DNA from: Mycolicibacterium smegmatis
GTDB taxonomy: Bacteria; Actinomycetota; Actinomycetes; Mycobacteriales; Mycobacteriaceae
Direction: 5' to 3'
Assembly: GCF_001457595.1 (NCBI RefSeq)
Contig: NZ_LN831039.1
Location: forward strand, 6,060,001 to 6,092,000
DNA: 32,000 nucleotides
Below the pieces are notes generated by a model, which searched no databases, was not told the origin of the DNA, and saw only the letters and a program-made list of their open reading frames with translations. The number at the start of each line of letters is the position of its first letter. Position 1 is the stretch's first letter. Positions 21,405 through 22,300 of this stretch are shown piece by piece. Both the position numbers and the translations under genes were made by a program.

Positions 21405-21492
21405 CACGTCGGGCGGGAGATGCCACCACGCGCCGAGATCGCATCCAGGGACAAAAAATCGCCGGGACGTGTCCCTCAGTGCAGTCTCGGCG
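21405..21492. repeat. Structured repeat element, copy 1
   Basis: cacgtcgggcgggaga + 9-nt variable segment + 63-nt hairpin-forming core (21430-21492). It is a direct repeat of 22216-22300; the core differs at 3 of 63 positions. Confidence 0.85.
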
Positions 21493-21598
21493 TCGCACGC
21501 ACTACCCTCGCGAGGTGAGACCCAGTACCTCACCCCACCTCACAGGTAGCCTGCTCGACAACGGGAGCGCACCCGATGACGAGACGCTGGAGTAGCCC

Positions 21599-22204
21599 GT
21601 GAGCAGTGTCCCTTTCATCGCCGCCCTCGGCGGGTTGGCCGCTATGGCCTTGGCTCCGCGCCGCGACGTACGAGTTGGACGCACAGTGTTTTGGGCCGGT
21701 GGGTTACTGACGTGCGTTTCGGCGTACTTCATCGCGGACCCGCAGGGCGTGCAAGCCGGATTCGGCGCATCGGCACTTGTTCTCGCGGTAGTTCTTTTCG
21801 TTGCGTATGTGCACACGCCGTTCCTGAACATTCGCCGACGCCGCATCTCCTTCTACAGTGAGGAGAGCGGACCTTACGGCGGCTATGTCACGGTCGCAAA
21901 GTCCTGGTGGCGCTTGGTCGGAACTGTCGCGGTTCTCGCCATTGGCGCAGTGTCGTTCGCCCTCAGCACTGGTGCCGTATGGCCGAGCGGTGTCGCAGCA
22001 TTCGTCGTCATCACGATCGGCTCGATCTTCGGCTACCGCGACAGCGTGTCAGGCAACGCGGTCTCGGGCGGCCAGCGACTTCAGTTCGTCCTCGTCACAG
22101 TTTTCACGCTCGGCGTTTTCGCGGTTTCCTACCTCGCCGTTTACCACGGAAGTCGCGTCTGGCTTTCCGATCAGCGATCGTACGGCCGTCACACGAGGGA
22201 CTGA
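21599..22204 (+). CDS. Hypothetical polytopic membrane protein (about 6 TM) with atypical codon usage
   Basis: 201 aa. GTG start with GGAG 6 nt upstream. Hydrophobic helices are separated by short basic loops (RRDVRVGR, NIRRRR). A/T-ending codons (GTT, GCA, GGA, CTT, GTA, TTA, ATT, ACT) are visibly more common than in the neighbouring genes. Confidence 0.6.
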   Translation: MSSVPFIAALGGLAAMALAPRRDVRVGRTVFWAGGLLTCVSAYFIADPQGVQAGFGASALVLAVVLFVAYVHTPFLNIRRRRISFYSEESGPYGGYVTVAKSWWRLVGTVAVLAIGAVSFALSTGAVWPSGVAAFVVITIGSIFGYRDSVSGNAVSGGQRLQFVLVTVFTLGVFAVSYLAVYHGSRVWLSDQRSYGRHTRD

Positions 22205-22215
22205 CCTGGCCAAGC

Positions 22216-22300
22216 CACGTCGGGCGGGAGACTTCGCGCGCCGAGATTGCATCCAGGGACAAAAAATCGCCCGGACGTGTCCCTCAGTGCAATCTCGGCG
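22216..22300. repeat. Structured repeat element, copy 2 (also a bidirectional terminator candidate)
   Basis: cacgtcgggcgggaga + 6-nt variable segment + 63-nt core (22238-22300). The core folds as a 13-bp perfect stem (cgccgagattgca / tgcaatctcggcg), a 3x3 internal loop, a 7-bp stem (agggaca / tgtccct) and a 16-nt loop. It lies between the convergent membrane-protein and ipdF genes. Confidence 0.85.

What the first reader, a model, noticed from the sequence alone, without database searches (positions are those of the whole stretch)
21405..22300. Single-gene membrane-protein cassette bracketed by ~85-nt direct repeats next to kstR2
A 201-aa polytopic membrane protein gene lies between two same-orientation copies of one element. 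Each copy has an identical 16-nt head (cacgtcgggcgggaga), a short variable segment, and a 63-nt core with 60 of 63 positions identical.

The gene uses many A/T-ending codons, unlike its neighbours. It occupies the slot that holds PPE64 in M. tuberculosis.

Direct repeats flanking one ORF would be expected after Campbell-type or site-specific insertion of a circular cassette at a pre-existing hairpin (an attL/attR-like or integron attC-like logic). Duplication of the ipdF terminator during an insertion would give the same result. No recombinase is present in the window.
Basis: partly seen in the sequence, partly recalled or inferred. Interest (0 to 1): 0.62.

Follow-up and report, generated by a model that had tools for sequence, protein, structure and literature searches.

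The report
Hairpin-plus-promoter duplication bracketing orphan membrane gene
A small membrane-protein gene of Mycolicibacterium smegmatis sits between two copies of a ~90-base piece of its own insertion site (a scrap of the kstR2 promoter plus a palindromic repeat element); the sister species has the empty site with one copy. This looks like the scar of a one-off gene gain, not a mobile cassette system.

Summary
Two same-orientation copies (21405-21492 and 22216-22300) share a 16/16 head and a 61/64 core, and they bracket one 201-aa six-helix membrane gene with low GC3 (about the 3.5th percentile of the genome).

The predicted empty site exists. The closest related species held (G168, about 91% identical) has kstR2-operator, one copy, then ipdF.

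Three results change the interpretation:
- **The core is not local.** It belongs to a dispersed, sequence-conserved palindrome family (13 strong copies) that mostly sits just after stop codons. One pair brackets a DUF559/AbiEi-like nuclease gene. This scan has noted that kind of unit before on other DNA.
- **The head belongs to the kstR2 promoter.** It follows the operator in six other species. Copy B is therefore a duplicate of the empty junction itself, not an element end or att site.
- **The gene is not a free cassette.** It is the last gene of a four-gene ESX-like module (p168, DUF2563, Hydro_N_hd, membrane) that fills this same slot in other Mycolicibacterium species. Here it is an orphan.

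Best reading (about 0.5): the module was lost, then only the membrane gene was regained, with a ~90-nt target duplication. An integron-like mechanism is not supported.

The parts
20754..21371 (-). kstR2 (TetR-family repressor, 205 aa)
   Evidence: Pfam TetR_N and TetR_C_24. Gene call 20754-21371 taken from L109. Named MSMEG_6009 in Kendall 2010.
21387..21400 (.). KstR2 operator ACCAAGCACTTGCT
   Evidence: Read directly from the sequence. It matches the published motif TACCAACCAAGCACTTGCTAGGTC for MSMEG_6009/6010 (PMC3068626). Conserved in all relatives examined.
21405..21420 (+). Head of copy A. This is native kstR2 promoter-proximal DNA.
   Evidence: 'aggtcacgt(c/t/a)(c/t)gggcg' follows the operator in G168, G061, G165, G018, G062 and G069.
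21421..21428 (+). Variable segment of copy A (TGCCACCA). By eye it matches TGCC..CCA in G168; this was not tested statistically.
   Evidence: Three-way alignment.
21429..21492 (+). Core of copy A: an R1-family palindromic element carrying two derived stem mutations.
   Evidence: Covariance-model score 73.7 bits.
21493..21598 (+). Unique 106-nt leader ('X') of unknown origin. It holds a GGAG ribosome-binding site. It also holds an 8-codon mini-ORF (21576-21602, MTRRWSSP*) whose TGA overlaps the GTG start.
   Evidence: No other copy in the genome or in the fetched loci. No significant similarity to the 3' end of the Hydro_N_hd gene or to the 5' region of p168. Homology to L075 begins only at 21594.
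21599..22204 (+). 201-aa six-helix membrane protein (MSMEG_6010 type). It is an orphan copy of the last gene of the p168-DUF2563-Hydro_N_hd-membrane module.
   Evidence: No Pfam or NCBIfam hit. No PF22905 anywhere in the genome.
22216..22231 (+). Head of copy B: a duplicate of the kstR2-proximal head.
   Evidence: 16/16 identical to 21405-21420.
22232..22236 (+). Variable segment of copy B (CTTCG)
22237..22302 (+). Core of copy B: a consensus-like R1 palindromic element lying between the convergent stop codons of the membrane gene and ipdF.
   Evidence: 83 bits, the best hit of the covariance model. Its right flank is orthologous to the flank of the single copies in G168 and L075.
22330..23118 (-). 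ipdF-type short-chain dehydrogenase (Rv3559c orthologue, 262 aa)
   Evidence: NCBIfam NF005880, 473 bits. Gene call from L109.

Best explanation
The bracket is a duplication of about 90 nt of an empty kstR2-ipdF junction. The duplicated unit is the last 16 or more nt of the kstR2 promoter region plus the one resident R1 palindromic element that lies after ipdF.

Proposed history:
1. (Inferred) The ancestor of the M. smegmatis/M. goodii group carried the four-gene module p168-DUF2563-Hydro_N_hd-membrane in this slot.
2. (Shown as a state, in G168) The module was lost, leaving operator-head-hairpin-ipdF.
3. (Inferred) In the M. smegmatis lineage a fragment of about 0.7 kb was inserted. It carried only the membrane gene and a 106-nt leader, and the junction was copied on both sides. 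A replicative template switch at the fork-stalling palindrome, or staggered breaks repaired with fill-in, would both give this result.

No site-specific recombinase is involved. The two copies can now recombine to delete the gene and restore the empty site.

Roles of the parts (all inferred):
- Copy B is in the usual 3'-end position of its family and probably stabilises or ends the transcripts of the two convergent genes.
- Copy A is a slightly decayed by-product that separates the KstR2 operator from the membrane gene.
- The gene is most likely an orphan protective (immunity-type) membrane partner of the glycine-rich C-terminus of the Hydro_N_hd protein that precedes it in relatives.
For: **Empty site.** G168 has the left flank of A and the right flank of B around one copy.

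**The head is native kstR2-side DNA.** It follows the operator in six further species, whatever cargo comes next.

**The hairpin is native ipdF-side DNA.** Both G168 and L075 have it directly after ipdF.

**Head-hairpin adjacency.** Outside G000 this adjacency was seen only in the empty allele (G168), yet both A and B show it.

**Age of the duplication.** A and B are closer to each other (61/64, same loop) than either is to the G168 copy, which differs at about 7-8 of 64 positions, six of them in the loop. This points to duplication after the species split.

**Origin of the gene.**
- The module sits in the same slot in Mycolicibacterium sp. P9-22, an M. cosmeticum MAG and G024. Membrane-gene homologues also lie next to ipdF in G074, G092, G148 and G099.
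- L075 (72% aa identity) has Hydro_N_hd, then the membrane gene with a GTGA overlap, then the hairpin, then ipdF.
- G000 has no PF22905 anywhere.

**A distinct allele.** Between G000 and L075 the membrane gene is 68-81% identical per 100 nt, whereas ipdF is 85-96%. GC3 is at the 3.5th percentile.

**Regulation.** MSMEG_6010 is not de-repressed in a kstR2 mutant (PMC3068626).

**No recombinase or vector.**
Against: - Direction is inferred, not shown. Only one close species could be read, and a G000-like ancestor followed by A x B deletion in G168 gives the same picture if gene conversion keeps A and B alike.
- Because the gene family is syntenic in this slot in other species, the gene may never have left.
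- The segment between head and core differs completely between A and B (8 vs 5 nt), which is odd for a young clean duplication.
- The origin of the 106-nt leader is unknown.
- No known mechanism routinely gives a target duplication of about 90 nt.
- At another locus (an FNT-like gene) a hairpin copy seems to have been added beside a gene that is resident in both species. Hairpin copying around a resident gene is therefore possible.
- The immunity reading has no database or structural support.
Confidence: 0.5

Rival explanations
1. The two-copy arrangement is ancestral. The bracket (A-gene-B) predates the split from G168. G168 lost the gene by homologous recombination between the two direct repeats, and A and B stayed alike through gene conversion.
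For: - Recombination between 88-nt direct repeats leaves exactly one copy with A's left flank and B's right flank, as seen in G168.
- The gene family is a long-term resident of this slot.
- A 94% allele exists in MKD8 and in M. goodii-labelled strains, so the gene is not very young in the group.
Against: - The loop and inter-stem bases of the G168 copy differ from both A and B at about 7 positions, whereas A and B differ from each other at 3.
- G168 lacks the GGAGA end of the head that A and B share.
- An earlier empty junction is still needed to bring head and hairpin together, so this model adds steps.
Confidence: 0.27
2. Element copying around a resident gene. The membrane gene stayed in place after its upstream partners were deleted, and an R1 copy moved or was copied to its other side, carrying flanking bases along.
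For: - R1 is a dispersed family with about 13 strong copies.
- At the FNT-like gene (G000 4405493-4406413) a 95% identical pair of another palindrome family brackets a gene. G168 has that gene too, but without the upstream copy.
Against: - Both the head (kstR2-side DNA) and the hairpin (ipdF-side DNA) are present in both copies. That needs two reciprocal copy events or co-mobilised flank.
- No other family member carries the head.
- G168 lacks the gene altogether.
Confidence: 0.13
3. Site-specific cassette. The hairpins are attC-like or att sites, and the gene is a mobile cassette inserted and excised by a recombinase encoded elsewhere.
For: - Imperfect palindromes with conserved stems and variable loops, in direct orientation on both sides of one ORF.
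- An empty site with one copy exists.
- Other single genes in this genome are also bracketed by palindrome pairs.
Against: - The duplicated unit includes 16 nt of non-element promoter DNA.
- There is no array, and by inspection no GTTRRRY-type core sites.
- The six tyrosine recombinase genes are all more than 200 kb away.
- There is no Y1 transposase.
- The gene is absent from plasmids and phages.
- In relatives the gene is operonic and translationally coupled to an upstream gene, with no repeat in front of it.
Confidence: 0.04

Closest known systems
TRIT (mycobacterial terminator-like palindrome motif; Gardner et al. 2011, PMC3152330) and REP-type extragenic palindromes
   Same: - Sequence-conserved palindromes in many copies.
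- Most R1 copies lie 1-33 nt after a stop codon, often between convergent genes. TRIT is likewise close to stop codons.
- Present in M. smegmatis.
- Probably not classical intrinsic terminators. There is no U-tract, and mycobacterial RNA polymerase needs one in vitro (PMC3993855).
   Different: - Low copy number: 13 strong copies, against 147 TRITs in M. tuberculosis.
- Whether R1 matches the TRIT model could not be tested. No model was available and Rfam gave no hit.
- There is no RAYT (Y1 transposase) in the genome, so it is not a REP/RAYT system.
Palindrome-flanked DUF559/AbiEi-like nuclease cassettes
   Same: - In this genome one R1 pair brackets such a nuclease gene (967980-968849).
- Four other paralogues are each bracketed by their own palindrome family, each with 7-12 dispersed copies.
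   Different: - The kstR2-ipdF bracket holds a membrane gene, not a nuclease gene.
- Its repeat includes non-palindromic promoter DNA.
Campbell-type attL/attR repeats of integrated elements, and integron attC cassettes
   Same: - Direct repeats on both sides of an insert.
- An empty site with one copy.
- A foldable imperfect palindrome.
   Different: - No integrase.
- A single 0.7-kb gene.
- The repeat is target DNA rather than an element-borne site.
- No array and no conserved core site.
Orphan immunity genes of type VII secretion toxin loci (for example TspA/TsaI of Staphylococcus aureus; recalled from memory, not tested here)
   Same: - A polytopic membrane protein encoded immediately after, and overlapping, a gene for a protein with a helical N-terminal domain and a glycine-rich C-terminus.
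- That gene is preceded by a small EsxAB-clan protein, DUF2563.
- The membrane gene is far more divergent than its flanks and survives alone where the putative toxin gene is gone.
   Different: - No sequence or fold link to any known toxin or immunity family.
- Models were too poor for fold search.
- Secretion and toxicity are untested.

Membership tests
Integron gene cassette / attC | Adjacent IntI-type tyrosine recombinase with attI and Pc | tested here: not met
   PF00589 hits in G000 lie at 1.21, 2.67, 3.89, 5.07, 5.85 and 6.41 Mb. None is within 200 kb of 6.081 Mb.
Integron gene cassette / attC | The recombination site is element-borne, bounded by conserved core sites (GTTRRRY and its inverse), and cassettes form arrays | tested here: not met
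   The repeat includes 16 nt of kstR2-promoter DNA that is conserved in six species. Only one gene is bracketed. No GTT-type core appears at the repeat ends in the sequence.
Integrated element with attL/attR (Campbell insertion) | Integrase or other recombinase carried by the insert | tested here: not met
   The insert 21493-22215 holds one 201-aa membrane ORF with no Pfam or NCBIfam hit.
Integrated element with attL/attR (Campbell insertion) | Empty site with a single copy of the repeat in relatives | tested here: met
   In G168:C1 around 6685606-6685672, kstR2 and ipdF flank one copy.
Transposon or insertion-sequence insertion | Short target-site duplication (about 2-15 bp), terminal inverted repeats, and a transposase | tested here: not met
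   The duplication is 88 nt or longer. The ends of the insert show no inverted repeats. The insert holds no transposase, and the genome has no Y1 transposase.
REP/REPIN-RAYT system | Dispersed extragenic palindromes of one sequence family | tested here: met
   13 strong and about 7 weak R1 sites in G000, and about 14 strong sites in G168. The stems are sequence-conserved and the loops vary.
REP/REPIN-RAYT system | RAYT (Y1/HUH transposase) gene flanked by the family's palindromes | tested here: not met
   No PF01797 in G000. The gene flanked by R1 copies is a DUF559/AbiEi-like nuclease-type gene instead.
TRIT motif (Gardner 2011) | Palindrome close to stop codons, bidirectional, in Mycobacterium | tested here: met
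   12 of the 20 R1 sites begin within about 35 nt after a called stop codon, and many lie between convergent genes. The TRIT properties are from PMC3152330.
TRIT motif (Gardner 2011) | Match to the TRIT covariance model or sequence logo | not testable with these tools
   The model and figure were not available. Rfam has no such family, and the region gave no hit.
Canonical intrinsic terminator | GC-rich hairpin followed directly by a U-tract | tested here: not met
   No terminator-like site was found in 21200-22500. The A/T run lies in the loop, not after the stem.
Type VII secretion toxin-immunity module (for the cargo gene) | Small EsxAB-clan partner gene, then a large protein with a helical N-terminal domain, then an immunity gene directly downstream | tested here: inconclusive
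   This gene order is found in relatives (DUF2563 PF10817, then Hydro_N_hd PF22905, then the membrane gene). DUF2563 is listed in the EsxAB clan (PMC6567927). In G000 only the last gene is present.
Type VII secretion toxin-immunity module (for the cargo gene) | Recognisable toxin domain and demonstrated protection by the downstream gene | not testable with these tools
   The C-terminal 124 aa gave no Pfam or PDB match. The AlphaFold2 models had pLDDT 43 and 56.

The most novel reading that the evidence does not exclude
The R1 palindromes, and four sister families in this genome, may be cut or nicked by the DUF559/AbiEi-like nuclease whose gene each family brackets. That would make them break-prone spots where foreign or ectopic DNA is captured and the palindrome and adjacent bases are duplicated. 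On this reading the kstR2-ipdF bracket, and possibly the bracket around the FNT-like gene, are footprints of a general nuclease-driven route of gene gain at 3'-end hairpins in mycobacteria.
Probability: 0.12. Interest if true: 0.7.

Novelty: new variant of a known kind. Interest (0 to 1): 0.42.

Why it matters
- **A clean natural example.** The locus shows a single gene lying between duplicated copies of its own insertion site, with the empty site preserved in a sister species. The junction is one that cholesterol-catabolism researchers already treat as variable (MSMEG_6010 here, PPE64 in M. tuberculosis).
- **It explains a published observation.** MSMEG_6010 is not under KstR2 control although it lies opposite the operator (PMC3068626). 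The gene has its own unrelated 106-nt leader, and a hairpin copy lies between it and the operator.
- **It connects three uncharacterised things that can each be tested in M. smegmatis:** a low-copy palindrome family in terminator position, the DUF559/AbiEi-like nuclease genes that such palindromes bracket, and an ESX-like four-gene module whose last gene survives alone.
- **A practical point.** The 88-nt repeats break short-read assemblies at this locus. They can also delete the gene by recombination, which matters for strain comparisons.

Tried and rejected
- **Is the 106-nt leader a remnant of the Hydro_N_hd 3' end?** No. Only the last ~9 nt, including the GTGA overlap, match L075. The rest is no better than shuffles.
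- **Is the leader the old p168 promoter or start?** A visual resemblance (MTRRW vs MSGTRRL) did not survive alignment statistics against four relatives.
- **Does the duplication extend into the operator?** 'CCAAGC' lies just left of head B. Flank-only alignments are not significant: p=0.6 on the left and 0.27 on the right. This is left as a possibility only.
- **Rfam.** Only a chance microRNA hit at E=0.68.
- **Metagenome scans.** The protein scan found nothing. A 17-nt operator+head pattern gave only chance hits.
- **Genome-contig scan.** Only three distant loci.
- **A 400-genome genus scan.** No homologue above 49% identity, so the M. goodii-type alleles could not be read in context.
- **Structure prediction.** Both the membrane protein and the Hydro_N_hd protein gave low confidence (pLDDT 56 and 43), so no fold search was run.
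- **Empty sites of two nuclease cassettes.** In G061, G069 and G165 these sites hold 39-52 nt of unrelated sequence with no recognisable palindrome. For those cassettes, target duplication could not be told apart from element-borne ends.
- **My first genome-wide hairpin and repeat scans were too strict** and missed A and B themselves. They were replaced by an intergenic all-against-all BLAST.
No read-level search for excision or deletion joints, and no RNA evidence, could be obtained.

Full report
**Organism and place**

The window is G000:C1:6060001-6092000 of a single-contig 6.98-Mb genome with 67.3% G+C. Public copies of the 201-aa protein are labelled Mycolicibacterium smegmatis. The locus is the kstR2 (MSMEG_6009) / MSMEG_6010 / ipdF (MSMEG_6011) junction described by Kendall et al. 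2010 (PMC3068626).

**1.

- The 64-nt cores at 21429-21492 and 22237-22300 are 95% identical.
- The 16-nt heads at 21405 and 22216 are identical, and the exact head occurs nowhere else in the genome.
- Copy A finds copy B at E=3.8e-27 in a whole-genome search.
- Past head and core the flanks are not significantly alike, so the unit is about 88-95 nt long.
- Each core folds into a two-tier hairpin. Copy B is the better one; copy A carries two non-compensating stem changes.
- The bracketed ORF (21599-22204) encodes a six-helix membrane protein with no Pfam or NCBIfam family.
- Its GC3 is 0.718, about the 3.5th percentile of roughly 5000 ORFs. Its neighbours have 0.85-0.90.
- Independent assemblies show the same arrangement.

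**2. The empty site exists**

In the nearest species held (G168, 91-92% identical), the kstR2-side match and the ipdF-side match overlap by 66 nt. The alignment shows operator, AGGTCACGTCGGGCG, 22 nt, one hairpin, and then the ipdF flank that follows copy B in G000.

In more distant relatives the slot holds 3-15 kb of varied cargo. M. tuberculosis has PPE64 there.

**3. What the core is**

The core belongs to a dispersed family that I call R1.

- A covariance model finds 13 strong and about 7 weak sites in G000, and about 14 strong sites in G168. Only weaker, diverged hits appear in three more distant species.
- The stems are conserved in sequence, not only in pairing, while the loops vary.
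- Twelve of the 20 sites begin within about 35 nt after a stop codon, and many lie between convergent genes. Copy B has this position.
- Copy A is an exception, because it lies between divergent genes.
- No U-tract follows the stem, and Rfam gives no match.
- In position and palindromy, R1 resembles the TRIT motif reported for mycobacteria including M. smegmatis (PMC3152330). Mycobacterial RNA polymerase needs a U-tract in vitro, so such hairpins may stabilise or define 3' ends rather than terminate transcription (PMC3993855).
- The genome has no RAYT.
- One R1 pair (967885 and 968811) brackets a 289-aa DUF559/AbiEi-like nuclease-type gene.
- That gene has 13 matches in the genome. Four other paralogues are each bracketed by a different palindrome family, each with 7-12 dispersed copies.
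- The same kind of unit was noted earlier in this scan on other DNA (e1-2329229 and e1-4575234).

**4. What the head is**

The head is ordinary kstR2 promoter-proximal DNA. The string aggtcacgt(c/t/a)(c/t)gggcg follows the KstR2 operator in G168, G061, G165, G018, G062 and G069, whatever lies beyond it.

Copy B, downstream of the membrane gene, therefore contains a duplicate of kstR2-side sequence. The hairpin, in contrast, is ipdF-side sequence, because it abuts ipdF in both G168 and L075. Outside G000, head and hairpin were seen next to each other only in the empty allele, yet both A and B show that adjacency.

A and B are also closer to each other (3 differences in 64) than either is to the G168 copy (7-8 differences, six of them in the loop).

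The simplest reading is that an empty, G168-like junction was duplicated around an incoming fragment after the two species split.

**5. What the gene is**

The protein family is small.

- Searches found ten 90%-identity clusters and 122 50%-identity clusters at E<=0.001 among 1.84 billion representatives.
- In relatives the gene is the last of four: a 168-aa protein (p168), DUF2563 (PF10817), a ~510-aa protein with Hydro_N_hd (PF22905), and then the membrane gene.
- This module fills the kstR2-ipdF slot, in the same orientation, in Mycolicibacterium sp. P9-22, an M. cosmeticum MAG and G024. Membrane-gene homologues also lie next to ipdF in G074, G092, G148 and G099.
- No flanking repeats surround the module in those species.
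- The closest outside allele is L075 (72% aa identity; its cluster includes M. goodii X7B). It has Hydro_N_hd, the membrane gene starting at a GTGA overlap, one R1 hairpin and ipdF.
- G000 has no PF22905 anywhere, so its gene is an orphan.
- G000, G168 and L075 are about equally distant in ipdF (85-96% per 100 nt). The membrane gene is only 68-81% identical between G000 and L075.
- The 106 nt upstream of the gene are unique and of unknown origin. They provide a GGAG site and an 8-codon mini-ORF that ends on the GTG start.
- The gene is not de-repressed in a kstR2 mutant.
- It has no homologue on plasmids or phages.

**6. Mechanism**

*Shown:*
- the duplication;
- the empty site;
- that the head is native to the kstR2 side and the hairpin to the ipdF side;
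- that the module is resident in this slot in other species;
- that no local recombinase is present.

*Inferred:*
- The order of events was loss of the module, then regain of the membrane gene alone.
- The molecular route was either a template switch at the palindrome that re-copied about 90 nt, or staggered breaks repaired with fill-in.

I put the insertion reading at about 0.5. Its rivals are:
- an ancestral bracket with deletion in G168 and concerted evolution of A and B, about 0.27;
- hairpin copying around a resident gene, about 0.13. This seems to have happened at an FNT-like gene, where G168 has the gene but lacks the upstream palindrome copy;
- an integron-like or att mechanism, about 0.04.

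**7. Function of the cargo**

- DUF2563 is listed in the EsxAB clan of type VII secretion substrates (PMC6567927).
- The Hydro_N_hd proteins end in a glycine-rich, zipper-like hydrophobic segment.
- The membrane gene is translationally coupled to the Hydro_N_hd gene and diverges much faster than its flanks.

This pattern fits a toxin-immunity pair, with M. smegmatis keeping an orphan immunity gene. It is inference only (my estimate about 0.35). No Pfam or PDB match supports it, and the structure models were too poor to compare.

**8. Verdict**

- This is a real and well-delimited structural polymorphism, with its empty site preserved in the sister species.
- It is most likely the scar of a single gene gain into a junction that holds a REP/TRIT-like palindrome.
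- It is not a cassette system.
- It is of moderate interest. The wider pattern of palindrome-bracketed genes in this genome is the more promising lead, and this scan had already noted that pattern elsewhere.

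Noticed in passing
G000:C1:967885-968877 (locus L131:1886-2878); outside the window: Two R1-family hairpins in direct orientation bracket a 289-aa DUF559/AbiEi-like nuclease-type gene (weak PF18741 hit). Their loops are related to each other. The pair is conserved in G168. In G018 an R1-like pair brackets a 54%-identical paralogue, and the flanks there do not match G000's.
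   Followed up: partly
G000:C1 near 909032, 1001472, 1720009, 5413739, 5743591 and 5984153; outside the window: Six other paralogues of that nuclease-type gene are each bracketed by a direct repeat of 43-65 nt. Four of these repeats are clear palindromes, a different one at each locus, and each belongs to a family with 7-12 dispersed copies in the genome. The pattern is REPtron-like, but the genome has no RAYT. Empty sites in G061, G069 and G165 hold only 39-52 nt of unrelated sequence.
   Followed up: partly
G000:C1:4405450-4406513 (locus L134:1951-3014); outside the window: An FNT-like transporter gene lies next to a tRNA gene and is bracketed by a 95%-identical pair of 62-nt palindromes. 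These belong to the same family that brackets the nuclease paralogue at 5413739. G168 has the gene but lacks the upstream copy and has a shorter palindrome downstream.
   Followed up: partly
window 21576-21602: An eight-codon mini-ORF (ATG..TGA, MTRRWSSP*) has a stop codon that overlaps the GTG start of the membrane gene (GTGA). The same overlap links the gene to the Hydro_N_hd gene in L075. Translational coupling may therefore have been kept.
   Followed up: no
kstR2-ipdF junction in G061, G165, G081, G069, G018 and G062 (loci L069-L074): In related species the distance between kstR2 and ipdF ranges from 3.3 to 14.6 kb, with unlike cargo. The junction appears to be a hot spot for gene turnover across the genus. 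The cargo was not annotated.
   Followed up: no
window 21599-22204 (protein P0001): Many distant homologues match the profile in two separate stretches (about residues 6-92 and 90-200). This may mean the protein is an internal duplication of a three-helix half.
   Followed up: no
G000:C1:1201225-1206362 and 1207189-1207662; outside the window: A 59-nt hairpin-forming direct repeat (76% identical) brackets four ORFs (5 kb). A tyrosine recombinase gene lies 0.8 kb beyond the right copy. This could be an integrated element.
   Followed up: no
G000:C1:239818-244690; outside the window: Two tandem paralogous genes for large alanine/glycine-rich secreted-type proteins (841 and 681 aa) are each followed by the same 59-nt hairpin. 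This looks like a tandem duplication of a gene together with its 3' hairpin. It shows that some hairpin brackets have a trivial origin.
   Followed up: no
loci L112 and L113 (Logan and ENA contigs of the same locus): Short-read contigs end inside or next to copy B or the leader. The 88-nt repeat breaks assemblies at this locus.
   Followed up: no
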